A DNA stretch of 31,845 nucleotides from Alphaproteobacteria bacterium (GTDB taxonomy: Bacteria > Pseudomonadota > Alphaproteobacteria > Rickettsiales > VGDC01): positions 1-31,845 of the forward strand of contig VGDC01000001.1 of assembly GCA_016869895.1 (NCBI GenBank). The letters are read 5' to 3'. Below the pieces are notes generated by a model. The model was not told the DNA's origin. It saw nothing but the letters and a program-made list of their open reading frames with translations, and ran no database searches. The position numbers were made by a program, and so were the translations under genes. The number at the start of each line of letters is the position of its first letter. Position 1 is the stretch's first letter. Shown piece after piece: positions 20,501 to 31,719 of this stretch.

Positions 20501-21706
20501 TTGCATCGACGTAAAAATGGAATCACGGTTTTGGAAAAATCCCTTCTCATTCTGCTGCAAAACGCCCAGATGCTCGCGCTCTATAAGCCGCTTCTGGCCT
20601 CGCTTTCCGACCATTCGGTGGTGGTGTATATCCCTGCCAAACGCGGGCAGAAATTGCTCTCCTTGGCGCGTAGCCAGCCCGCGCATGTTTCGTTGTGCGA
20701 TGAGCTGGAGACTATCCTGTTGAATATGCACCGTTTTGGCGTGGTGCTGACCTCGCTTGCCATCCCTTGTCGCGTGCAGATGGAGCAGGCGGGATTATTG
20801 CTGGAAGCCGCGCATAAAGCCGGTTTGAAGGTAGTCGAGGTGCAGCACGGTTTGTTCCAGTGGGGGCATTTGTTCGAGGACAAAAAACCCATCCTTTCCG
20901 ACCCCGCGCGCTGCGGCGGCGAGCGCGGTCTTGGAAAATCGGTAAATATATCCGATGCTTATCTTCCGTGGTTCGGCGAGGGCGGCATCGGTTATCCGCT
21001 GTCGGGCATCGGCGATGTACCGCTGGAGACCCGCAAGGATACGGTGCTCGTCGCCACGAATCTGCACTGGACGATTTACGGCGCGCATGAACGCCGCGCC
21101 TTCTTCGCCGCGGTGGGATACGCCGCGCGCAAACACCCGCAGACAGCCTTCATCTGGAAGGCGCATACGGGCGACCATGAACTGGTGAAGCAATGGCTGC
21201 GGAAAAAGAAATATCGTAATATCAGCCTGATTCCTGCCGACGATGCGCGGAGTTTCGAGGACATCGCTTCCGGCTGTGCGCAGGCCATTTCCATGCCATC
21301 GACGGTGCTGTTGTCTCTGGAAGTCTTGCGCAAACCCACGGCCATTTTCCGCTGTGAAGGCAACGCCGAACTGGTGGGTAAACTGGCGGAAAGTCATGCA
21401 TTCACCGATGGTCGCGCGCTGGATGCCTTCCTGAGCGAATCCCCCGCTCTGGCGGCCAGCGGCCTTCTTGAGCCTTTCGACGCGGGTGTATTCCGCGCCG
21501 CAGTGGCCAAGCATTACACCGAAACGCGCAATCCCTTCGGCAATCTGGCGGTGTGGAATGCCTATCGCCTGAGTCATGACCGCGAGGCGGGTTCACGGGT
21601 GAAAACCCTGCTCATCGGCCTTTACCGGAAGCTATCGCGCTTGCCGCTGCTGCGCGAGCTGCTCCACTGGCGACCCTTGCGGCAATGGCTGCGCGACCGC
21701 CGATAA
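20501..21706 (+). CDS. Putative polysaccharide biosynthesis / GT-B-fold transferase (start uncertain; TTG at 20501 or 20531)
   Basis: VVEVQHG, WKAH and STVLLSLEVLRKP resemble motifs of capsule-biosynthesis and glycerophosphotransferase-like proteins; directly upstream of wzm. Confidence 0.55.
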   Translation: MHRRKNGITVLEKSLLILLQNAQMLALYKPLLASLSDHSVVVYIPAKRGQKLLSLARSQPAHVSLCDELETILLNMHRFGVVLTSLAIPCRVQMEQAGLLLEAAHKAGLKVVEVQHGLFQWGHLFEDKKPILSDPARCGGERGLGKSVNISDAYLPWFGEGGIGYPLSGIGDVPLETRKDTVLVATNLHWTIYGAHERRAFFAAVGYAARKHPQTAFIWKAHTGDHELVKQWLRKKKYRNISLIPADDARSFEDIASGCAQAISMPSTVLLSLEVLRKPTAIFRCEGNAELVGKLAESHAFTDGRALDAFLSESPALAASGLLEPFDAGVFRAAVAKHYTETRNPFGNLAVWNAYRLSHDREAGSRVKTLLIGLYRKLSRLPLLRELLHWRPLRQWLRDRR

Positions 21707-21727: not shown

Positions 21728-21756
21728 TTGCCCCCGCAACCCTCGGGGGGTATAAG
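21728..21756 (+). promoter_or_regulatory. Sigma70-type promoter for wzm-wzt, overlapped by an inverted repeat
   Basis: TTGCCC-N17-TATAAG ending 29 nt before the wzm ATG; IR AGGGTTGC-CCCC-GCAACCCT at 21724-21743. Confidence 0.55.
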
Positions 21757-21784
21757 GGATTTTCCTGAAAACCACGGACATCCC

Positions 21785-22588
21785 ATGCCCGATAAGCTGC
21801 TTTTCATCACCCGATTCCTCGATACGCGCCGCTCGCACCTGTTGCAGCTGATGCTGTTCAAGGCCTATGCCGACCTGAAGACCGAATCGGCGCGCAGCAC
21901 GGCAGGCGTGCTGTGGTGGGTGCTGGAACCGGTGCTGCATATGGCGGTGTATTATCTCGTCTTCGCGGTGCTGATGCAGACGAAGACCGATCAGTTCGTG
22001 GTGTTCCTGCTCATCGGGCTGGTGGTCTGGCGGTGGTTCTTCTCGACGGTGACGCAGGGCGCGGCGTCCATCATAGCGGGCAAGAACCTGATGCAGCATG
22101 TGCATATCACGCCGTCTTTCTTCCCCTCGGTGTCGCTGATAAGCCAAGGATTCAAGTTCGTCATCACCTTCCTTATCCTGCTGGTGTTCATCTGGCTATA
22201 CGGCCTTGCGCCGAGCGTTGCTTACACTGCTCTTCCGGTCGTGCTGGCGGTGCAGTTTCTGTTCATCGTGGGCACGACCTATCTGTGCTCAGCCATCGTG
22301 CCTTTTCTGCCCGACCTGAAAATTCTGTTGGGGCATTTCCTGCGCGCGGTGATGTTCGTCAGCGGTATCTTCTTCGACGGCGACCATATCCCCGAACACC
22401 TGAAGAGCTGGTTCTTCGCCAACCCGATGGCGGCGCTCATTGAAGCGTACCGCGATATCCTCATCGACGGTGTGCTGCCCGACTGGGGGCATCTGAGCTA
22501 TGTCGCGTTGTTCGGTTTATTGCTGTTATTGGTGGGCAAGCGGCTGCTGGCAAAAGCGGAATTCCTGTACCCCAGAGTGGTGATGTGA
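21785..22588 (+). CDS. wzm: Polysaccharide ABC transporter permease (Wzm/KpsM-like)
   Basis: G.LWWVLEP, FLLIGLVVWRWF, F.SGIFF, NPMA.LIEAYR.IL; about 6 TM segments. Confidence 0.92.
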   Translation: MPDKLLFITRFLDTRRSHLLQLMLFKAYADLKTESARSTAGVLWWVLEPVLHMAVYYLVFAVLMQTKTDQFVVFLLIGLVVWRWFFSTVTQGAASIIAGKNLMQHVHITPSFFPSVSLISQGFKFVITFLILLVFIWLYGLAPSVAYTALPVVLAVQFLFIVGTTYLCSAIVPFLPDLKILLGHFLRAVMFVSGIFFDGDHIPEHLKSWFFANPMAALIEAYRDILIDGVLPDWGHLSYVALFGLLLLLVGKRLLAKAEFLYPRVVM

Positions 22589-22595
22589 GGGCAAA

Positions 22596-23336
22596 ATGAA
22601 CGCAAAAACCACCCAAAAAACCGAAAAACCCATCCTCTCCCTCAAGGGCGTGGGCGTGAACTATGGCAAATCCTTCTCCTTCCGCCGCAAGCGGCTTGAC
22701 CGCTGGGTGCTGCAGGACATCAGCTTCGACCTGATGCCCGGGGAATCGCTTGGCGTGTTGGGGCGCAACGGCATCGGCAAAAGCACGCTGCTGAAGACCA
22801 TGGCAGGTGTCATCGCACCGGATGCGGGCGAGGTGAAGCTGAAGAAAGGATGCAGCGCATCGCTGCTTGCCTTGGGCACGGGCTTCATGCCGGAATTGAC
22901 GGGGCGAGAGAACGTGTTCCTCGGTGGGATGCTCATCGGCATGAAAGCAGGGGAAATCCGCAAGCGTTTCGATGAGATTGTGGCCTTTGCGGAGCTGGAA
23001 GAGGCCATCGATATGCCCTATTACACCTATTCCAGCGGCATGAAATCGCGCCTCGGATTCGCGCTGAGCATCCAGCGCAATCCCGATATCCTGCTGCTCG
23101 ACGAAGTGCTGGGCGTGGGCGATGTGGCTTTCCGCAAGAAATCCGCCGATGCGTTGAAAGAGCGCATCCTCGGCGAACAGACGGTGGTGCTGGTGTCGCA
23201 CAACGGGCAGACCATCCGCGAACTGTGCAACCGCGCCATCTGGATAGAACAGGGTGTCATCCGCATGGCGGGCGACCCCGACCAAGTGGTGACGGAATAT
23301 GAGGCGCAGATGCTGGCACTGGAACAAAGCAAATAA
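22596..23336 (+). CDS. wzt: Polysaccharide ABC transporter ATPase (Wzt/KpsT-like, no C-terminal carbohydrate-binding domain)
   Basis: GRNGIGKST, ELTGRENV, YSSGMKSRLGF, LLLDEVLGVGD.AF, VSH. Confidence 0.94.
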   Translation: MNAKTTQKTEKPILSLKGVGVNYGKSFSFRRKRLDRWVLQDISFDLMPGESLGVLGRNGIGKSTLLKTMAGVIAPDAGEVKLKKGCSASLLALGTGFMPELTGRENVFLGGMLIGMKAGEIRKRFDEIVAFAELEEAIDMPYYTYSSGMKSRLGFALSIQRNPDILLLDEVLGVGDVAFRKKSADALKERILGEQTVVLVSHNGQTIRELCNRAIWIEQGVIRMAGDPDQVVTEYEAQMLALEQSK

Positions 23337-23375: not shown

Positions 23376-23735
23376 ATGAGGCAGTATAAGGTCGGAGAAG
23401 AGGACGCGCGCCCTTGGGGTGGGTGGAAGGTGCTGGATGTGCATCCGGATTATGTGGTGAAGCATATCCATGTGCTGCCGGGAAAACGCCTTTCCCTGCA
23501 GCGTCACCGCTATCGCGAGGAGGTCTGGGCCATCACCCGCGGTATCGCCCAAGTGACGCTGGACGAAGAGACGCTGACCCTGAAAGTCGGAGAGAGCATC
23601 CGCATTCCGCTGCGCGCGTGGCACCGCATCCACAACATCGGCGAGGAGATGCTGGAGTTCGTGGAGACGCAGACGGGAAGCCGATTCGATGAAGATGACA
23701 TCGAACGGAAAGAGGACGATTTCGGGCGCGCCTGA
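23376..23735 (+). CDS. Stand-alone cupin, type II phosphomannose isomerase C-terminal-like
   Basis: RPWG, SLQRH..REE.W, HRI.N.G, QTG..FDEDDIER..DDFGR. Confidence 0.85.
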   Translation: MRQYKVGEEDARPWGGWKVLDVHPDYVVKHIHVLPGKRLSLQRHRYREEVWAITRGIAQVTLDEETLTLKVGESIRIPLRAWHRIHNIGEEMLEFVETQTGSRFDEDDIERKEDDFGRA

Positions 23736-23832
23736 TTTCCTGCGCAGGAATTTGGCATGACAAGAAGGCCGTTCTGCGCTAGAAAGGCGGCTTATCAATC
23801 TGCGCATATAAACAAAAAATAAGGAAATTGTC

Positions 23833-24717
23833 GTGGTACAGGTCATCGCGGAAGTCGGCTGCAATCATAAAGGCGATATGGACATTGCCAAGGAACTCAT
23901 CAACGTCGCCGCCCATGTGTGCAAGGCTGATGTGGTGAAATTCCAGAAACGTCACAACAAGGAATTGCTGTCGCCGGAGCAGTATAACGCGCCGCATCCG
24001 AACCCTGCTAATTCCTACGGCGATACTTACGGCGCGCACCGCGAATTCCTCGAATTCTCCACCGAGCAGCACGCCGAATTGAAAGCCCATTGCGAAGCGA
24101 ACGGCATCATCTACTCCACCTCCGTGTGGGATTTGACCTCCGCCAAGGAAATCGCGTCGCTCGACCCCGTGCTCATCAAAATCCCTTCCGCCACGAACCT
24201 CCACTGGCCGCTTCAGGGCTGGCTCTGCGAGAACTATAAGGGCGAAATCCACGTCTCCACCGGCATGACCACCAAGGACGAAATCGAAGAGATCGTGAAG
24301 TTCTACGAGAAGCATGGCCGCGCGAAGGATTCGCTGGTGCTTTATGCCTGCACGTCCGGCTATCCGGTCGCTTTCGACGACCTCTGCCTGAACGAGGTCA
24401 GCCGCATCAAGGAACTGTACGGCGACCGCGTGAAAGCCATCGCTTTCTCCGGCCACCACCTCGGCATCGCTGCTGACATCGCTGCTATGACGCTGGGCGC
24501 AAGCTGGGTGGAGCGTCACTTCACGCTCGACCGCACCTGGAAAGGCACCGACCACGCCGCCAGCCTCGAGCCGGATGGACTCCGCCGTCTCTGCCGCGAC
24601 CTGCGCAATGTGGAGAAAGCGCTCACCTTCAAATCCCGCGATATTCTGGAAGTGGAAGCCGTGCAGCGCCGCAAGCTGAAATGGGGCGAATACACCGCAG
24701 AAACCAAAGCGGGCTGA
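23833..24717 (+). CDS. neuB: NeuB-family nonulosonate synthase lacking the C-terminal antifreeze-like domain
   Basis: IAEVGCNHKGD, DVVKFQKR, KIPSA, STGMTT, CTSGYP, SGHHLG, VERHFTLDR..KGTDH.ASLEP; 294 aa. Confidence 0.92.
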   Translation: MVQVIAEVGCNHKGDMDIAKELINVAAHVCKADVVKFQKRHNKELLSPEQYNAPHPNPANSYGDTYGAHREFLEFSTEQHAELKAHCEANGIIYSTSVWDLTSAKEIASLDPVLIKIPSATNLHWPLQGWLCENYKGEIHVSTGMTTKDEIEEIVKFYEKHGRAKDSLVLYACTSGYPVAFDDLCLNEVSRIKELYGDRVKAIAFSGHHLGIAADIAAMTLGASWVERHFTLDRTWKGTDHAASLEPDGLRRLCRDLRNVEKALTFKSRDILEVEAVQRRKLKWGEYTAETKAG

Positions 24718-24720
24718 TTC

Positions 24721-25860
24721 ATGCGCGTCGTCGCCGTCATCCCCGCGCGCGGAGGCTCGAAAGGCGTTCCGAACAAGAACATCCGCCCTGTCGGCGGCGT
24801 GCCGCTGGTCGGCCGCAGCATCATCGCCGCGCTGGAAAGCGAGACGGTGGGCGGCGTTTACGTCTCCACGGATGATGTCGGCATCGCGGCGGTGTCCACC
24901 GCCTTCGGCGCAAGCGTCATCCAGCGTCCGGCGGAAATATCGGGGGATACGGCCTCTTCCGAAGCCGCACTGCTCCACGCACTTGACCACATGCCCGAAC
25001 AGCCGGACGTGCTGGTGTTCCTGCAATGCACCTCGCCTTTCACCACGCCTGCGCAGATAGACGCCGTGGTGCGCAAGCTCATTGCGACGGATGCCGACTG
25101 CTGCTTCGCGGCGGCGGAGGATCATGGCTTCCTGTGGCAGGAGAACGGCGAGGATGCGGTGGGCGTGAACCACGACCACACCCAGCCGCGCAAACGCCGG
25201 CAGGAACTCACCCCGACCTACCGCGAGACGGGCAGCATCTATGCCCTGCGCGTGACGGCTTTCCGCGAGAAACAGCAACGCTTCTGCGGCAAGACGGTGC
25301 TGGCGGTGGTGGATCAGGCGCCGTTGGAAATCGATACGCCCGATGAACTGCGCTGGTGCGATGCCATCGCCTGGACGCGGAAAGAGAACGTGCCGCTGAA
25401 ACCGCGATTGGAGGCCATCAAAGCCCTCGTCTTCGATTTCGACGGGGTGATGACCGACGACCATGTGACCGTGAGCGAAACGGGCGAGGAGAGCGTGCGC
25501 TGCTCGCGCTCGGACGGGATGGGCATCACGCTGCTGAAGGAGAAGGGGCTGAAGCTGTTCATCCTCTCCAAAGAGAAGAACCCCGTGGTGCTGGCGCGCG
25601 CGAAGAAGCTGGGCATTCCCGCGCAGAATTCCACCGATAGCAAACTGCCCGCGCTGCAGGCATGGGCAGCGGAGAACGGCGTGAGCCTTTCCGAAATCGC
25701 CTATATGGGCAATGATGTGAACGATGTGGAAGTGATGGGGCAGGTAGGGCTCGCCATCGCCCCCGCCGATGCCCACCCCTCGGCCAAAGCCGTTGCCCAT
25801 TACATCACCGCGAAGGATGGCGGCAAGGGCGCCGTGCGGGAAGTATGTGATTGGTGGTGA
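24721..25860 (+). CDS. neuA: CMP-nonulosonate synthetase fused to a KdsC/YrbI-type HAD phosphatase
   Basis: IPARGGSKGVPNKN, VSTDD, LQCTSPF, ETGSIY, EIDTPD; then FDFDGVMTD, SDGMGI, YMGNDVND, GG.GAVRE. Confidence 0.92.
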   Translation: MRVVAVIPARGGSKGVPNKNIRPVGGVPLVGRSIIAALESETVGGVYVSTDDVGIAAVSTAFGASVIQRPAEISGDTASSEAALLHALDHMPEQPDVLVFLQCTSPFTTPAQIDAVVRKLIATDADCCFAAAEDHGFLWQENGEDAVGVNHDHTQPRKRRQELTPTYRETGSIYALRVTAFREKQQRFCGKTVLAVVDQAPLEIDTPDELRWCDAIAWTRKENVPLKPRLEAIKALVFDFDGVMTDDHVTVSETGEESVRCSRSDGMGITLLKEKGLKLFILSKEKNPVVLARAKKLGIPAQNSTDSKLPALQAWAAENGVSLSEIAYMGNDVNDVEVMGQVGLAIAPADAHPSAKAVAHYITAKDGGKGAVREVCDWW

Positions 25861-25927: not shown

Positions 25928-26773
25928 ATGCACTCAATCCATCCATCGGATTATCAAAAAGCCTTCGTGCGTTATCTGCGCAAAGGAATTCCCCTTGATG
26001 TCGCATTAAAGGCGCCATCAAGCGAACACACTACAACTCACTACATCTGGCGCACGTCTGGTGATGATAAGGTTAGGAATGCCCACGCGGTCAACAACGG
26101 CAAACTATTTCGTTGGGATGTGCGTCCATCCACCGGACATCCGGGCGAGGATTATAATTGTCGTTGCAAAGCGGAGCCGTTCATTCCAGGTGAGAGTGAG
26201 TATGCATATCAAATACTATTGCAGCCAGAGCGTGATGTGGAAAATAAATGGACAGCAGCCAAATTCATTAGACATTACTACTTTGGTGGCGGAAGAACAC
26301 TTGAGTTACAAGAAACGGGGCATCTCCTAGCGATTATCAATTACTATTTATACTATATAAAACGTCAGGGAGCGGACAGTAGAAGCCGGGTGAATTCTGA
26401 AATAATTACTGCTGCTCGTAAGCGACAGAGTGGGGGTTTCACCCATAATTTTTATAATTCATACACCGAGTTTGGTGATTATTTTTGGCCGTTTGGTGGT
26501 GGAAAGGTAAGCGGCTTATTCACAGGAGACGTTCATCATAAAAACGGCATGCTAAGTATCCAAGGAACTATTAATTACAAGTATGCAGATATTTTCACAG
26601 ATCCGGTTAATTTGAGAGAAGATTTTTACCATGGCACATCAGACCCAGCCGAAGCATCTATATTGGCTCTAATGGTAACTGATGCGCTTGGTGTGCACTT
26701 TGATGTAGTCGGGCGGTGGGAGACGCAATTCTCAGCGGAAGTAAGATTAGATGCTGAAAATAGCATGTACTAA
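25928..26773 (+). CDS. MuF (phage head morphogenesis) domain protein with a C-terminal extension; candidate polymorphic toxin
   Basis: YIWRTSGDDKVR..H..NNGK.F.W......HPGEDYNCRC.AEP MuF signature; GAGGT RBS; sampled lines have 23/60 and 24/60 G+C. Confidence 0.82.
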   Translation: MHSIHPSDYQKAFVRYLRKGIPLDVALKAPSSEHTTTHYIWRTSGDDKVRNAHAVNNGKLFRWDVRPSTGHPGEDYNCRCKAEPFIPGESEYAYQILLQPERDVENKWTAAKFIRHYYFGGGRTLELQETGHLLAIINYYLYYIKRQGADSRSRVNSEIITAARKRQSGGFTHNFYNSYTEFGDYFWPFGGGKVSGLFTGDVHHKNGMLSIQGTINYKYADIFTDPVNLREDFYHGTSDPAEASILALMVTDALGVHFDVVGRWETQFSAEVRLDAENSMY

Positions 26774-27243
26774 GAAGCTAGTTCTAAAATCAGTGTGCTG
26801 ACCATCATGCAAATGGGGTAAATGACGAATATGAGTGTGCCGATAGCTATCAGAAAGTTCGCGAACCATCCCTTCTTGAAGTGCCCACCCATGGTTTTGA
26901 TGGTGCGTCTGTGCCGCATTTGCCAAGCAAATTCACACAATCCCGCATATCCCGCTGCGAAGACCCAGCCAATCAGCGGGTAGAAGAATAAGCCTAAGCC
27001 TTTCGGCGGCTTTCCGCATTCGGGATGTTGCTGGAGAGAGCCGTCAGCGAATTGGCTTTGGCAAATTTCATAATCGTGCCAACCTAGATGATAGTGTGAG
27101 TAAATCATCGCATTCAGCGCCGCATACCCTAAAAGAATCGCGCCGATGAGCCGCCACGTGCGGAACTTCGCACTATCTTCTGGCTTTGCGGCGAAGACCA
27201 GCACGGGAATCAGCATCACGAATAACCAGAAAAACGGGTTCAT
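26770..27243 (-). CDS. 157-aa four-TM membrane protein; candidate immunity protein
   Basis: Start MNPFFW, coupled by ATGA overlap to the upstream GT29 gene; four hydrophobic segments; Cys pair in the loop between TM2 and TM3; stop overlaps the MuF gene stop. Confidence 0.72.
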   Translation of the reverse strand: MNPFFWLFVMLIPVLVFAAKPEDSAKFRTWRLIGAILLGYAALNAMIYSHYHLGWHDYEICQSQFADGSLQQHPECGKPPKGLGLFFYPLIGWVFAAGYAGLCEFAWQMRHRRTIKTMGGHFKKGWFANFLIAIGTLIFVIYPICMMVSTLILELAS

Positions 27244-28301
27244 TCCCCTGCTTCCCCCATCAGCTTCCTGAAGTAAGCCGCTTCTTTGTGCCAATCGTGG
27301 GGGCTGCTGATGGTGAATTTCTCGAAATAGTGTGATTTCGCGCCGGCTTGCAGATGGTCGGTGAAGCTGAAACCGTAGCAATCGGGTTTCGCATCCGGCC
27401 CGATGATGTCACACACAGCACGGATGGCGAGCAGCCCTGTGCTGGGCGGTGAGCCAAGCTCTTCAAACAAGGCGTCATAGGTCTTCTGGAAGGTCAATGT
27501 GCCCGTGCCTTTGCGCTGCTGCGCTTCGATGGCCGACCAATCGGCGGGATGGGCGAAAAGGTGGGAGACGCCATAGCCAATGAAGGCGAATCTTTCATCT
27601 GGTCGCTCCTGTGTGCGGCGGTTGCGCCCACGGAACCAGACGGTGGCTTTCGTGCCGTAATCCGCTGCGAAACGCGAATCGGCGGCGAAATTGTTGAAGC
27701 GGATGACGACGGCGTGGCGGTCTATCTCCGCGCCTCTGGCCTTGCCGACTTCGCAGGGGGAATTGCCGACCAGCGCGATATTGAAGCGGTTAGCGAGGAG
27801 GTATTCGCGGAAGCGGTCGTGATCCAGCGCGAAGCGGATGCGCTGGCGGTTGGTGGGGTCGAAACAGGCATATCTGCCTTCGATGTCTTTCGCGCCGGGG
27901 AAGGTGATGGCGGCGGCATCGCGCAGGCCGAGGTCATAGAGCGCGGCTTTCAGGCGAAGGCGTTTGGCGGGCGCGCGCACGTTGCCCATGCGGGGTAGAT
28001 AGGATGCGGCGGTGGGGGCATCCAGTCGGCCAGAATCGAAGAGGTCGAGCAGGTAATCCGCCAGATAATCCCCGTTATGGGGGGCGAGTTCAGCCGCCTT
28101 CAGGAAGAGCGGCGCGGCGGCGAGGGAATGCCCGCCCGCATAACGATGCGCCTTGGCGGATGTGTGGAAATCCGCCGCAGAACGAGGCGGGAAACGGCGA
28201 TAACCCGCCCGCACAAGGCCAAGAACCACAGAAAGCGCACGGTTGCACTCTAACCGGCTCTGGATGCGCGCTATCTGATATAATCCCTGAAGCAAAATCA
28301 T
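27240..28301 (-). CDS. GT29-family (eukaryote-type) sialyltransferase-like protein (start 28301 or 28316)
   Basis: Sialylmotif L-like [28 protein letters not shown]...DYGTKAT; S-like PSTGLLAI...CYGFSF; III/VS-like HYFE...HDWHKE. Confidence 0.85.
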
Positions 28302-28426
28302 GGCTCTGGATAACACGGATTGTCAGCTTTTTCCACGGAAAATGCTTTGGATTCCTTGACGTTGCAGGAATTATGCTTATGATGCTGCCATTGCCTGCGG
28401 TGGGCGGTTATTTCAAGGTTTTTTGT

Positions 28427-29761
28427 ATGCGTATCGGTATTTTCGGGACGGGTTATGTCGGCCTCGTGCAGGCGGCTGTGCTGGCGGAAACGGGCTATAG
28501 CGTGCTGTGCGTCGATGTGGATGCGTCGAAAGTGGCGCGACTGGAAGCAGGCGAAATCCCCATCTATGAACCCGGTCTAGAAGGGCTGGTGAAGCATAAC
28601 CGTGCGGAAGGCCGCTTGAAATTCACCACGCAGGCCGCCGATGCGGTGAAGCATGCGGGCATCCAATACATCGCCGTGGGCACGCCGCCCGATGAGGATG
28701 GCTCCGCCGATTTGAAATATGTGTTGGCTGTGGCGGAGAGCATCGCCATCCATATGGAATCCCACCAGATCGTCATCAACAAATCCACTGTACCCGTCGG
28801 AACAGGGGACAAGGTGCGCGCGAAAATCGCCGAGACGCTGAAAGAACGTGGCCGCGAAGACCTGACCTTCGATGTGGTGTCCAACCCCGAATTCCTCAAG
28901 GAAGGCTCGGCGGTGGGCGATTGCATGAAGCCCGACCGGATCGTCATCGGCACGAACAGCCGCGAGACGGAAGCGGTGATGCGCGAGCTTTATGCCCCCT
29001 TCAACCGCAACCATGAGAAAATCATCGTGATGGATGTGCGCAGTGCGGAAATGACCAAATACGCCGCGAACTGCATGCTGGCGACCCGCATCACCTTCAT
29101 GAACGAGATGGCCAACCTCGCCGAGAAGCTGGGGGCGGATATCGAACAGGTGCGCCATGGCATCGGGTCTGACCCGCGTATCGGCTATCACTTCATCTAC
29201 CCCGGCATCGGCTATGGCGGCTCGTGTTTCCCCAAGGACGTGCGCGCGCTCATCCAGACGGCGAAGGCGGTGGGCTATGAAACCACGCTGCTGAACGCGG
29301 TGGAGAACCGCAATAACACGCAGAAAACTGTACTCTTCAACAAGCTGAACGCCTATTTCGGTGGCGACCTCAAAGGCAAGGTCATCGCACTTTGGGGGCT
29401 GGCGTTCAAGCCGAATACCGATGATATGCGCGAAGCACCGTCGCGCGTGTTGATGGAAGCGCTGTGGGAAGCGGGCGCAAGCGTGCGCGCTTTTGACCCC
29501 GAAGCCATGCAGGAAGCCGAGCGGGTGTATGGCAAAAGCGACCGATTGACGCTGGTGGAGAACAAGGAAGCCGCGCTGGAGGGCGCGGATGCGCTGGCCA
29601 TCGTGACCGAGTGGAAAGCCTTCCACGCGCCGGATTTTGCGCGCATCAAAAACACGCTGCGTGAGCCTGCCATCTTTGACGGACGCAATATCTATGACCC
29701 CGCCGTCGTCGCGCGCCACGGCATCGACTATTATGCTATCGGGCGCGGAAAGACCATTTAA
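28427..29761 (+). CDS. ugd: UDP-glucose 6-dehydrogenase (444 aa)
   Basis: True start [12 protein letters not shown]; [57 protein letters not shown]. Confidence 0.96.
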
Positions 29762-29781: not shown

Positions 29782-31719
29782 ATGAAAAAAGAACAAGAAA
29801 AATACTGTTTCACCACCGTTGTTTCTGACAATTTCGTCCACGGATTCATCGTGATGCTGTGCTCGCTGCGGGAGAAGAACCCGTGGATGAATGCGCCGTT
29901 CTACGTGTTCCACCATGAGCGCGAATGCCCGCTTTCCGAAGCCAGCATGACGGAGATGCGGAAGTATTACGACAACATCATCTTCCACCGCGTGGACATC
30001 GAGAAGTTCGAGCGCATCCTGCATGCGCGCGACAATGTCATCAAGACACCGGAGCGCCTCGCTTCCGCCTTTTTCATCATGGAAGCCTTCACTTTCAGCG
30101 ATTACGACCGCGTCATCTGCATCGACAGTGACATGCTGGTGCTGGGGGATATTTCCGAGCTAGTGCGCGTGAAAGCCGACCTCGCGGTGGTGCATGAATA
30201 CGATAGCCGCACCTATCAGCAGAAGAAGCATTTCAACAGCGGCATCGTGGTCATCGGCAAGAAATATCTGCATGCGGATAGTTTGAAGGACATCAGCGAT
30301 TCGCTGGACCGTTTCGACCTGAAAGCTAAGCACGGCAAGGCTGATCAGGCGGTGCTGAACTGCTATTTCGCCGATAAGGAGCTCACCTTCCTACCCCATG
30401 CCTTCAACTGCCTGAAACGGCTTTATGGCGATTCCTATGCCAAGCCCTACAACGATTTGCACACAGGCAGCCGGAAAATCGCTGCGAAACTGCAGAAGGA
30501 TGGCATCCGCATCCTGCATTATGTGGGCGAGAAGCCATGGAACCTGAAGCGTAAGCCGGTCGAGATGCGCTATTACTGCGCAGAGGAGCTGTGGCACGAT
30601 GCCTTCCGCAAATATGCTTCGCCGGAGGCGCAGCACCGCTACCTGACCGATTTCCGCCGTCATGCGGATGAGCAGGTGGCGCAGTTGACCAAACGCATCG
30701 AGAAATACCGTGCCTTCTGGCCGTATCGTCTGCAGAAGACGCTGGAGAACCTGAGCGACAGCAAGTCCATCGGTGAACTTGGCGAAAAGCTGGTGAAATT
30801 GGCTGTGCATGTGGCGAAACGCCTGCGCGTGAAGGTCATCCACGCATGGATGCGCTATCGCCAGCTGGACGAGAAATCGCTGGAGAAGCGTCAACGCGAA
30901 CAGCGGATGGATGTGCAGCGCAGGGCGTTCCTCGATTCCGGTGAATACGACCGTCTGCGCGCCCGATTTGAGAACAAATACGAAGGCCAGCGGTGCTTCA
31001 TCATCGGCAATGGCCCGTCGCTGAACCAGCAGGACTTGTCGGTGTTGAGGGATGAGCAGGTCTTCTGCACCAACTGGTTCATGAACCATCCGCAATACCA
31101 CGACATCAATCCGCAGTTCTATGCCCTCTGCTCCCACCAGATTTTCGGTGGCTGGTCGCACGAGCATATCCAGCTGGAGAAGGGCATGGAGACCGCGCTG
31201 GCCACACATACGCGTGATTCTGTCAAGTTCTTCTCCCACGTGTTCAAGTCGCATCTGGAGAGCCAGACGGCACTGGCCGACCACGAGCTGTATTATCTGA
31301 TGTTCGACAAGCCGAAGAACTTCATCCATAAAATCGACGACATGAATCTCGACCTCAGCCGCAACATGGACGATGGGCACACGGGGGTCATCACCTTCTG
31401 CATCCCGCTGGCCATCTTCATGGGGTTCAAGGAAATCTACCTGCTCGGCTGCGATTGTGATTATGGCATCGACGACGGCAAGACGGATGTGCAGTATTTC
31501 TACGAGAAAGAGAAACACACCACCCAGCTCACCGATATGGACAGCCTGCGCCGGACATGGTCATACCCCGACGGAGCGGCATTCAAGGCTTATGCAGTGG
31601 CAAAGCGCAAGGCCGACGAAGCGGGTGTGCGCATCGTGAATCTCACGGCAGGCGGCAGGCTGGAGGTCTTTCCGCGGGAATCCTTAGAGGACGTGGTGAA
31701 ACAGCCGGAAGCCGCTTAG
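29782..31719 (+). CDS. Bifunctional glycosyltransferase: GT8 domain plus DUF115/Maf-like (CstII-related) domain
   Basis: N-half IDSDML, FNSGIVVI, DQAVLN, LP.AFN, HYVGEKPW; C-half RCFIIGNGPSL, FCTN, LAIFMGFKEIYLLGCD. Confidence 0.85.
   Translation: MKKEQEKYCFTTVVSDNFVHGFIVMLCSLREKNPWMNAPFYVFHHERECPLSEASMTEMRKYYDNIIFHRVDIEKFERILHARDNVIKTPERLASAFFIMEAFTFSDYDRVICIDSDMLVLGDISELVRVKADLAVVHEYDSRTYQQKKHFNSGIVVIGKKYLHADSLKDISDSLDRFDLKAKHGKADQAVLNCYFADKELTFLPHAFNCLKRLYGDSYAKPYNDLHTGSRKIAAKLQKDGIRILHYVGEKPWNLKRKPVEMRYYCAEELWHDAFRKYASPEAQHRYLTDFRRHADEQVAQLTKRIEKYRAFWPYRLQKTLENLSDSKSIGELGEKLVKLAVHVAKRLRVKVIHAWMRYRQLDEKSLEKRQREQRMDVQRRAFLDSGEYDRLRARFENKYEGQRCFIIGNGPSLNQQDLSVLRDEQVFCTNWFMNHPQYHDINPQFYALCSHQIFGGWSHEHIQLEKGMETALATHTRDSVKFFSHVFKSHLESQTALADHELYYLMFDKPKNFIHKIDDMNLDLSRNMDDGHTGVITFCIPLAIFMGFKEIYLLGCDCDYGIDDGKTDVQYFYEKEKHTTQLTDMDSLRRTWSYPDGAAFKAYAVAKRKADEAGVRIVNLTAGGRLEVFPRESLEDVVKQPEAA

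What the first reader, a model, noticed from the sequence alone, without database searches (positions are those of the whole stretch)
23376..25860. Compact candidate KDN pathway: PMI cupin, NeuB and NeuA-HAD
Seen: three adjacent co-oriented genes, with no NeuC epimerase, NeuD or Pse/Leg dehydratase or aminotransferase in the window. Established: KDN is made as Man-6-P + PEP to KDN-9-P to KDN to CMP-KDN (Bacteroides thetaiotaomicron, vertebrates), while bacterial Neu5Ac, Pse and Leg routes need no phosphatase. Inference: the cupin supplies Man-6-P, and the locus makes CMP-KDN or another 9-phosphate-derived sialic acid, which is rarely described in alphaproteobacteria.
Basis: partly seen in the sequence, partly recalled or inferred. 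Interest (0 to 1): 0.72.

Follow-up and report, generated by a model that had tools for sequence, protein, structure and literature searches.

The report
Probable CMP-Kdn sugar-acid gene cassette
Three neighbouring genes in a lake alphaproteobacterium most likely make the activated sialic-acid-like sugar CMP-Kdn from fructose-6-phosphate through phosphorylated intermediates; the two-gene core of this cassette is common across bacteria but has never been tested biochemically.

Summary
Three co-oriented genes encode a 119-aa type-II PMI cupin (23376-23735), a 294-aa NeuB synthase with no SAF domain (23833-24717), and a CMP-sugar synthetase fused to a KdsC-type HAD phosphatase (24721-25860).

The 9-phosphate/Kdn reading is the best-supported one, but it rests on indirect evidence:
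- The HAD domain has the Glu56/Lys67 pair of the B. thetaiotaomicron Kdn-9-P phosphatase. E. coli KdsC has Arg/Thr there.
- The synthase falls in one strongly supported split with the two other phosphatase-linked NeuB lineages, the BT1714 type and the Streptomyces type. Both are tied to Kdn.
- Its nearest reviewed relatives are animal 9-phosphate synthases (35% identity).
- The ~90% complete genome shows no NeuC, NanE or ManA, and the cupin is its only recognisable PMI.

Caveats:
- The synthase is not an orthologue of BT1714 (32-35% identity). It belongs to a separate, very conserved clade (65-79% identity across phyla, at least 585 species genomes).
- In 118 of 144 related loci that clade sits beside the same NeuA-HAD fusion, so the core is ordinary.
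- This scan has already noted look-alike modules in 27 other genomes.
- The dedicated PMI cupin, which is CBS-fused in Bacillota, is the only fresh element.

No enzyme of this clade has been assayed.

The parts
23376..23735 (+). Stand-alone type-II phosphomannose isomerase cupin (119 aa). Proposed step: Fru-6-P to Man-6-P.
   Evidence: PF01050 at 102.9 bits against a cut-off of 23.6, covering profile positions 7-116 of 116. The RPWG, SLQxH, E and H motifs are present. It is the only PF01050 hit in the genome, and no ManA was found.
23833..24717 (+). SAF-less NeuB-family synthase of clade A (294 aa). Proposed step: PEP + Man-6-P to Kdn-9-P.
   Evidence: PF03102 at 224 bits with no SAF domain. 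It scores below the NeuB and PseI equivalog cut-offs. It is 65-79% identical to homologues across phyla. Residues matching N. meningitidis NeuB E25, K53, Q55, K129, H215, E234 and H236 are kept. The AF2 model has pLDDT 92, and its best reviewed hits are human and mouse NANS.
24721..25395 (+). N-terminal CMP-nonulosonate synthetase domain of the fusion protein. Proposed step: Kdn + CTP to CMP-Kdn.
   Evidence: PF02348. TIGR03584 PseF aligns to residues 4-211 at 124 bits, below its cut-off. PDB hits are CMP-Neu5Ac synthetases 6ifd, 1eyr and 1qwj.
25396..25860 (+). C-terminal C0-type HAD phosphatase domain of the same protein. Proposed step: Kdn-9-P to Kdn + Pi.
   Evidence: KdsC/YrbI family hits. 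It is the only such domain in the genome. The DFDGV nucleophile motif is intact, as are Lys80, Glu56, Arg64 and Lys67 in BT1713 numbering. The best PDB hit is Streptomyces avermitilis 3mmz at 133 bits.
21728..23336 (+). ABC-2 permease (21728-22588) and ATPase (22596-23336), the likely exporter of the glycan.
   Evidence: PF01061 and PF00005. The genes are co-oriented and end 39 nt upstream of the cupin gene.
27240..28316 (-). GT29-like candidate sialyl/Kdn-transferase.
   Evidence: Weak PF00777 hit, 3.7e-10, over residues 181-227. An earlier scan note, e1-5289397, examined it. I did not study it further.
28004..29761 (+). UDP-glucose/GDP-mannose dehydrogenase. Its domains begin at residue 142 of the long ORF, so the true start is probably near 28427.
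   Evidence: PF03721, PF00984 and PF03720.
29782..31719 (+). GT8 fused to an MptE-like/DUF115 domain, a candidate glycan-building transferase.
   Evidence: PF01501 and PF01973.

Best explanation
The three genes form a self-contained four-activity cassette for CMP-Kdn:
1. The cupin isomerises fructose-6-P to mannose-6-P.
2. The SAF-less NeuB homologue condenses Man-6-P with PEP to give Kdn-9-P.
3. The HAD domain of the third protein removes the 9-phosphate.
4. Its N-terminal domain activates Kdn with CTP.

The product would then feed the neighbouring transferases (GT29-like, GT8-DUF115), and the glycan would leave through the ABC-2 transporter.

Shown: domain identities, intact catalytic motifs, gene linkage, and the distribution and phylogeny of the parts.

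Inferred: all substrates and the product.
For: 1. Domains and order are as stated.

2. Phosphatase type.
- The HAD domain has Glu56/Arg64/Lys67 (BT1713 numbering). These are invariant in 105 clade-A fusions, 118 Streptomyces fusions and 17 BT1713-type proteins.
- E. coli KdsC has Arg and Thr at positions 56 and 67.
- PDB entry 4hgq differs from the wild-type BT1713 chain 3e81 by Ala in place of Glu at position 56, consistent with that residue having been probed by mutation.

3. Not the housekeeping KdsC.
- None of 30 same-order relatives has a KdsC-type HAD.
- A separate KdsB lies on contig C4.

4. Tree.
- Clade A, the Streptomyces type, the BT1714 type and a Nitrospirota sequence that also sits beside a HAD form one split (100/99).
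- That split is apart from the SAF-bearing NeuB/PseI/LegI-like sequences.
- BT1714 is a characterised Kdn-9-P synthase (PMC6200933).
- Streptomyces walls carry Kdn teichulosonic acid made by the SCO4873-4882 cluster (PMC11481543, PMC13011467).

5. The best reviewed structural and sequence hits are human and mouse NANS (35% and 34% identity, TM 0.87). C. jejuni NeuB is at 22%.

6. The core needs no dedicated precursor enzyme.
- In 144 related loci only NeuA-HAD is conserved next to NeuB (118 loci).
- All other neighbours are generic glycan genes.

7. PMI link.
- PF01050 cupins lie beside clade-A NeuB as stand-alone genes in Methylopila.
- In five Bacillota loci they are CBS-cupin fusions.
- In three loci they are full ManC genes.

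8. Own genome.
- No NeuC, no NanE, no ManA.
- There is only this one PF01050 domain.
- There is a GMP-only ManC without a cupin on contig C299.
Against: - No member of clade A has been assayed.
- The synthase is only 32-35% identical to the BT1714-type and Streptomyces-type enzymes. Function is therefore transferred over a long distance.
- The tree has long branches, has no root, and lacks animal NANS and BT1714 itself.
- The HAD pair separates nonulosonate-9-P from Kdo-8-P. It does not separate Kdn from Neu5Ac.
- The position matching BT1713 residue 103, the first Asp of GDD, is Asn here. The same is true of all Streptomyces fusions.
- All NCBIfam equivalog cut-offs are missed.
- The genome is about 90% complete, so absences are provisional.
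- Methylopila has both a full ManC and the cassette cupin, so the cupin is not merely filling a gap.
Confidence: 0.62

Rival explanations
1. An animal-type Neu5Ac route. The synthase would use ManNAc-6-P to give Neu5Ac-9-P, followed by dephosphorylation and CMP activation. The cupin would serve only GDP-mannose synthesis.
For: The nearest reviewed homologues are animal Neu5Ac-9-P synthases. The fusion has the architecture of vertebrate CMP-sialic acid synthetase and matches both mouse halves, 1qwj and 3ewi. A GT29-like gene is nearby. A GMP-only ManC on C299 could be the cupin's client.
Against: No NeuC/WecB-type epimerase and no NanE were found in the genome. No ManNAc-related enzyme is conserved in the 144 related loci. 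ManNAc-6-P is not a general bacterial metabolite (own knowledge). PMI cupins are operonic with this synthase in two phyla.
Confidence: 0.1
2. A different, undescribed ulosonic acid. Clade A would condense PEP with some other sugar phosphate, possibly made by the cupin acting as a non-PMI isomerase or epimerase. The HAD and CMP-transferase steps would be the same.
For: Clade A is a separate, long-branched lineage with its own invariant residues, such as the R-x-W-K-G-T-D block after the second metal His. The residue matching N. meningitidis NeuB Glu134 is not conserved. Undescribed CMP-ulosonic acids are still being found in alphaproteobacteria (bioRxiv 10.64898/2026.04.20.719630).
Against: The cupin has the full type-II PMI motif set and scores far above the PF01050 cut-off. 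The other two HAD-linked lineages are tied to Kdn. Parsimony favours a central metabolite, because the two-gene core stands alone in most loci.
Confidence: 0.15
3. A legionaminic or pseudaminic acid synthase whose precursor genes lie elsewhere in the genome.
For: A PglF/CapD-like dehydratase lies on C49, and DegT aminotransferases lie on C135, C211 and C155. LegI is the third-best reviewed hit at 32%.
Against: Those routes need no phosphatase, yet the HAD is fused and conserved. No NeuC/LegG-type hydrolysing epimerase was found. The C135 aminotransferase sits with a C-methyltransferase, a WbqC protein and a formyltransferase, which is a different amino-sugar pathway. The PseI model scores 135 against a cut-off of 340.
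Confidence: 0.04

Closest known systems
Bacteroides thetaiotaomicron Kdn pathway (BT1714 Kdn-9-P synthase, BT1713 Kdn-9-P phosphatase; Wang et al. 2008, as cited in PMC6200933)
   Same: The logic is the same: a NeuB-family synthase next to a C0 HAD phosphatase and a CMP-synthetase. The HAD carries the same Glu56/Arg64/Lys67 residues. The synthases fall on the same side of a 100/99 split.
   Different: - The synthase is only 32-35% identical.
- BT1714-type enzymes are about 346 aa with a SAF domain; this one is 294 aa without one.
- The phosphatase here is fused to the CMP-synthetase.
- A PMI cupin is added.
- The NF058599 cut-off is not reached (88 against 180).
Streptomyces teichulosonic-acid (Kdn) cluster, SCO4873-SCO4882 in S. 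coelicolor (Ostash 2014, as cited in PMC13011467); HAD structure 3mmz of S. avermitilis
   Same: It has the same NeuA-HAD fusion, 44-45% identical in both halves, next to a SAF-less NeuB. It has the same GND variant of HAD motif IV. 3mmz is the best PDB hit for the HAD domain.
   Different: The NeuB is about 34% identical and forms its own clade. No cupin was found in the 80 Streptomyces loci scanned by tblastn. The product there is a Gram-positive wall polymer.
Vertebrate sialic acid enzymes: NANS (Neu5Ac-9-P/Kdn-9-P synthase) and CMAS (CMP-sialic acid synthetase with a C-terminal HAD-like domain)
   Same: NANS is the best reviewed match of the synthase (35%). The domain order of the fusion equals that of CMAS, and both mouse halves match.
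   Different: NANS has a SAF/AFP domain. The mouse CMAS C-domain has Asn in place of the nucleophile Asp (alignment), whereas both Asp residues are intact here.
KdsD/KpsF-KdsA-KdsC-KdsB pathway for CMP-Kdo
   Same: The four-step logic is the same: sugar-phosphate isomerase, PEP aldolase, C0 HAD phosphatase, CMP-transferase. The CBS-plus-isomerase architecture of the Bacillota cupins parallels the SIS-plus-CBS architecture of KdsD (KdsD architecture from own knowledge).
   Different: The aldolase belongs to the NeuB family, not the DAHP/KdsA family. The HAD has Glu/Lys where KdsC has Arg/Thr. The isomerase is a cupin, not a SIS protein.

Membership tests
NeuB family (PF03102) PEP-dependent ulosonate synthases | TIM-barrel NeuB domain above the Pfam cut-off, with the metal and PEP residues of N. 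meningitidis NeuB (E25, K53, Q55, K129, H215, E234, H236) | tested here: met
   224 bits against a cut-off of 22.1. All seven residues align to E7, K36, Q38, K116, H208, E227 and H229, and these are invariant in 22 clade members.
Classical bacterial Neu5Ac synthase (TIGR03569 NeuB_NnaB) | Score above the equivalog cut-off, a C-terminal SAF domain, and a NeuC partner | tested here: not met
   204 bits against a cut-off of 400. There is no SAF domain. No NeuC was found in the genome.
Kdn-9-P synthase of the BT1714 type (EC 2.5.1.132) | Orthology with BT1714, the gene next to BT1713 | tested here: not met
   The NeuB gene beside a HAD that matches the shown part of the BT1713 chain at all but one residue (L179) is only 33% identical to the window's synthase and carries a SAF domain. 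It forms a separate clade within a shared 100/99 split.
Kdn-9-P synthase (functional class) | Specificity for Man-6-P + PEP | not testable with these tools
   Only context is available: HAD linkage, the PMI cupin, and no ManNAc source.
C0-type HAD nonulosonate-9-P phosphatase (BT1713/KDN9PP type) | DxD nucleophile motif, Ser/Thr motif II, Lys motif III and acidic motif IV, plus Glu56 and Lys67 rather than the Arg and Thr of KdsC | tested here: met
   The motifs DFDGV, ILS, SKL and GNDVND are present. E56, R64 and K67 are present. Caveats: residue 103 is Asn, and NF058599 scores 88 against a cut-off of 180. The marker pair is recalled from Lu et al. 2009. It is supported here only by the KdsC contrast and by the Ala-for-Glu difference at position 56 in PDB entry 4hgq.
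KdsC (Kdo-8-P phosphatase, NF007019 / TIGR01670) | Score above the cut-off, and the KdsC-type Arg at position 56 | tested here: not met
   110 against 208 and 103.6 against 106.95. Position 56 is Glu, not Arg.
CMP-sialic acid synthetase (PF02348 CTP_transf_3) | Cytidylyltransferase domain above the Pfam cut-off, with full-length similarity to solved CMP-Neu5Ac synthetases | tested here: met
   79.9 bits against 22.6. It aligns to 6ifd over residues 3-213 at 104 bits. Sugar specificity was not tested.
Type II phosphomannose isomerase (PF01050) | C-terminal PMI cupin domain with RPWG and the Gln-x-His, Glu and His metal motif | tested here: met
   102.9 bits against 23.6, covering nearly the whole profile. 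The motifs ARPWGGW, SLQRH, REEVW and WHRIHN are present. The ligand assignment rests on own knowledge of PMI structures. Activity was not tested, and some ManC proteins with this domain are reported to lack PMI activity (own knowledge).

The most novel reading that the evidence does not exclude
Clade-A synthases do not make Kdn-9-P. Instead, the very conserved SAF-less enzyme, helped here by a dedicated cupin isomerase, would use a different sugar phosphate. The widespread two-gene core would then produce either animal-type Neu5Ac without any NeuC/GNE step or an undescribed CMP-ulosonic acid in hundreds of environmental and gut species.
Probability: 0.2. Interest if true: 0.7.

Novelty: new member of a known kind. 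Interest (0 to 1): 0.4.

Why it matters
Kdn is detected widely in environmental biomass, for example in granular sludge EPS (PMC10483923). Genome annotation, however, cannot separate Kdn synthases from Neu5Ac synthases.

This work marks out a very conserved, uncharacterised synthase clade found in at least 585 species genomes across many phyla. The clade is nearly always paired with a vertebrate-CMAS-like synthetase-phosphatase fusion, and it is the likeliest main bacterial Kdn route.

It also points to a possible fourth pathway enzyme, a dedicated PMI cupin that is CBS-fused in Bacillota and is analogous to KdsD in Kdo synthesis.

One set of in vitro assays on this cassette, or on the Methylopila copy, would allow hundreds of genomes to be annotated.

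For this organism, the cassette suggests a Kdn-bearing surface glycan exported by an ABC transporter.

Tried and rejected
- **Fetching B. thetaiotaomicron BT1714 itself.** Two related-loci scans, a search of 121 Bacteroides genomes and a peptide-pattern scan did not return a record named B. thetaiotaomicron. I used L179, an uncultured Bacteroides, as a proxy. Its HAD matches the shown part of the BT1713 PDB chain at all but one residue.
- **Papers not held.** Wang 2008, Lu 2009 and Daughtry 2013 could not be read. The Glu56/Lys67 rule is therefore partly from memory.
- **Swiss-Prot.** It holds no BT1714 entry among the hits.
- **Serratia marcescens KL1 neuA/neuB (Kdn producer, PMC9000132).** These could not be placed because no sequence was reachable.
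- **The 401-aa ORF at 20501-21706.** It has no Pfam or NCBIfam hit, even at E 0.1. It is not related to the DUF6716 protein found upstream of the Methylopila cassette.
- **Idea rejected: the HAD is the housekeeping KdsC.** None of 30 relatives has one, and the specificity residues differ.
- **Idea rejected: the DegT gene on C135 belongs to a Pse/Leg route**.
- **The SugarBase preprint on higher-carbon CMP-ulosonic acids in Magnetospirillum.** It gave no gene link to this module.
Full report
**Observation**

The window is the whole of contig C1 of a 2.09-Mb, 377-contig, 89.75% complete assembly. Three co-oriented ORFs lie at 23376-23735, 23833-24717 and 24721-25860.
- The first ORF (119 aa) matches PF01050, the C-terminal cupin of type-II phosphomannose isomerases, over nearly the whole profile (1.6e-29).
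- The second ORF (294 aa) matches PF03102 NeuB (2.1e-66) and ends without a SAF domain. It scores 204 bits on the NeuB equivalog model (cut-off 400) and 135 on PseI (cut-off 340).
- The third ORF (379 aa) joins a CTP_transf_3 cytidylyltransferase (residues 4-211) to a KdsC/YrbI-type C0 HAD domain (residues 229-377). Both halves match the two solved halves of mouse CMP-sialic acid synthetase, among other structures.
- The gaps are 97 nt and 3 nt. The synthase starts at GTG behind AAGGAAA.

The surroundings form a glycan locus.
- An ABC-2 permease and ATPase lie directly upstream.
- Downstream lie a GT29-like gene on the minus strand, a UDP-glucose dehydrogenase, and a GT8 fused to an MptE-like/DUF115 domain.
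- A low-GC MuF-type insert separates the cassette from those genes.

**The core of the cassette is widespread**

- A scan of one genome per species found more than 585 relatives of the synthase. The best 80 are 66-79% identical and come from Alphaproteobacteria, Bacteroidota, Verrucomicrobiota, Bacillota, Myxococcota, Thermodesulfobacteriota and Mycolicibacterium.
- An alignment of 22 diverse members has 66% mean column identity.
- In 144 such loci, the only gene regularly found within 6 kb is the same NeuA-HAD fusion (118 loci, median 387 aa).
- The next most frequent neighbours are GT2, GT4, an NAD-epimerase, pyruvyl transferases, a flippase and DUF6716.
- No precursor-supplying enzyme is conserved, so the two-gene core must draw on a common metabolite.
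- Among 30 genomes of the same order, seven have NeuB-family genes. All seven are long forms (open frames of 336-395 aa), and the seven sequences compared directly are only 24-33% identical to the window's synthase. None of the 30 genomes has a KdsC-type HAD.
- The cassette is therefore sporadic in this lineage, and its HAD is not a housekeeping KdsC. A separate KdsB lies on contig C4.

**The synthase is not an orthologue of the characterised enzyme**

- I searched for the B. thetaiotaomicron locus with a peptide taken from the BT1713 chain in the PDB.
- The hits include an uncultured Bacteroides locus, L179. Its HAD matches the shown part of BT1713 at all but one residue.
- These loci carry an adjacent NeuB homologue of about 346 aa with a SAF domain. 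It is only 32-35% identical to the window's synthase.
- Streptomyces makes Kdn-containing teichulosonic acid from the SCO4873-SCO4882 cluster (PMC11481543, PMC13011467).
- In 80 Streptomyces loci, a NeuA-HAD fusion 44-45% identical to the window's sits next to a SAF-less NeuB that is again only about 34% identical.
- At least three synthase lineages are therefore linked to C0 HAD phosphatases.
- A maximum-likelihood tree of 59 sequences joins all three, plus a Nitrospirota sequence also next to a HAD, on one side of a branch with 100/99 support. The SAF-bearing NeuB/PseI/LegI-like sequences of relatives and second copies lie on the other side.
- The tree has long branches and no true root, so this is support, not proof.
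- An AlphaFold model (pLDDT 92) finds human and mouse Neu5Ac-9-P synthases as the best reviewed matches (35% and 34% identity, TM 0.87). LegI follows at 32%, and C. jejuni NeuB is at 22%. According to PMC7845648, the human enzyme also makes Kdn-9-P from Man-6-P.

**The phosphatase**

- The HAD domain keeps both Asp residues of DFDGV, the Ser of motif II, the Lys of motif III, and GNDVND.
- At the two positions that, as I recall from Lu et al. 2009 (not readable here), separate Kdn-9-P from Kdo-8-P phosphatases, it has Glu56 and Lys67.
- These two residues, with Arg64, are invariant in 105 clade-A fusions, 118 Streptomyces fusions and 17 BT1713-type proteins. E. coli KdsC has Arg and Thr there.
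- The PDB holds a BT1713 entry, 4hgq, whose chain differs from the wild-type 3e81 chain by Ala for Glu at position 56. This fits the residue having been probed.
- The residue matching BT1713 position 103 is Asn here, in 19 of 105 clade-A proteins and in every Streptomyces protein. Together with the intact nucleophile, this suggests a tolerated variant rather than decay.
- These residues argue for a nonulosonate-9-phosphate substrate. They do not distinguish Kdn from Neu5Ac.

**The cupin and the Man-6-P argument**

- The cupin carries RPWG, SLQxH, a conserved Glu and the WHRxxN His. From my knowledge of PMI structures, this is the Gln/His/Glu/His metal set.
- Its closest relatives (50-52% identical) are stand-alone cupins in the same position upstream of the synthase in two Methylopila species.
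- In five Bacillota loci, a 250-aa protein made of CBS domains and the same cupin lies 30-70 nt after the synthase or the fusion gene.
- Three other loci have a full ManC.
- A CBS-linked sugar-phosphate isomerase next to an ulosonate synthase parallels KdsD in Kdo synthesis.
- In the window's own genome there is no ManA, no NanE, no NeuC/WecB and no second PF01050 domain.
- A ManC-like guanylyltransferase on contig C299 ends after 332 aa without a cupin. The cassette cupin is therefore the only recognisable PMI. It may serve both GDP-mannose and the synthase.
- Five other carriers of the core all have a full-length ManC elsewhere. This fits the core needing Man-6-P, but it also shows that the extra cupin in Methylopila is not simply filling a gap.
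- The DegT aminotransferase on C135 sits with a C-methyltransferase, a WbqC protein and a formyltransferase. The one strong Polysacc_synt_2 hit is a long PglF/CapD-like protein. Neither makes a Pse/Leg set.

**Conclusion**

- The most economical reading is Fru-6-P to Man-6-P (cupin), then to Kdn-9-P (synthase), then to Kdn (HAD), then to CMP-Kdn (cytidylyltransferase). The neighbouring transferases would use the product, and the ABC-2 transporter would export the glycan.
- I put this at about 0.6.
- The main rivals are an animal-type Neu5Ac route, which has no visible ManNAc-6-P source, and an unknown sugar phosphate acceptor.

**Novelty**

- The 9-phosphate Kdn pathway is known from B. thetaiotaomicron and a haptophyte (PMC6200933).
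- Kdn glycans are known from Streptomyces, Sinorhizobium fredii, Klebsiella ozaenae and Serratia (PMC7845648, PMC9000132).
- This scan has already noted look-alike modules in 27 other genomes. One earlier follow-up reached the same 'probably Kdn, uncharacterised, widespread' verdict.
- What this window adds is the operonic PMI cupin in a genome that has no other PMI, plus the observation that cupin or CBS-cupin genes recur with this synthase clade.
- It is a new member of a known kind, with a modest, testable extension.

Noticed in passing
window 23737-23750: A perfect 14-nt palindrome, TTCCTGCGCAGGAA, starts 2 nt after the cupin stop codon, within the 97-nt gap before the synthase gene. It could be a small hairpin or a protein-binding site between the cupin and the two-gene core.
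   Followed up: no
G000 contig C299:1137-2132 (minus strand): A ManC-like mannose-1-phosphate guanylyltransferase of 332 aa lacks the C-terminal PMI cupin. The usual bifunctional ManC therefore appears split in this genome, with the only cupin located in the Kdn cassette.
   Followed up: partly
L076:5753-6508, L116:4881-5657, L121:4919-5698, L138:6045-6800, L149:6033-6782: Bacillota carriers of the same synthase clade encode a 250-aa fusion of CBS domains with the PF01050 cupin, placed directly after the synthase or the NeuA-HAD gene. I know of no description of this architecture.
   Followed up: partly
window 25928-27243: A low-GC (0.45) insert lies between the cassette and the transferase genes. 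It contains a Phage_Mu_F-like gene and a convergent small ORF. Earlier scan notes read it as a MuF-tagged toxin with an immunity gene.
   Followed up: no
window 28004-28426: The long ORF of the UDP-glucose dehydrogenase would overlap the minus-strand GT29-like gene by about 300 nt. The dehydrogenase domains begin only at residue 142, so the real start is probably near 28427.
   Followed up: partly
L162, L163, L164 (Bacteroides timonensis genome G001): One Bacteroides genome holds three NeuB homologues: a clade-A one with NeuA-HAD, a BT1714-type one next to a HAD, and a third. The two phosphatase-linked lineages therefore coexist and are not simple replacements for each other.
   Followed up: partly
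window 20501-21706: A 401-aa ORF at the head of the ABC-transporter operon has no Pfam or NCBIfam match, even at E 0.1. It is a candidate unknown glycan-assembly protein.
   Followed up: partly
30 same-order genomes (G122-G151): None has a KdsC-type HAD phosphatase, although this genome has a KdsB. The order seems to make Kdo without a recognisable KdsC.
   Followed up: no
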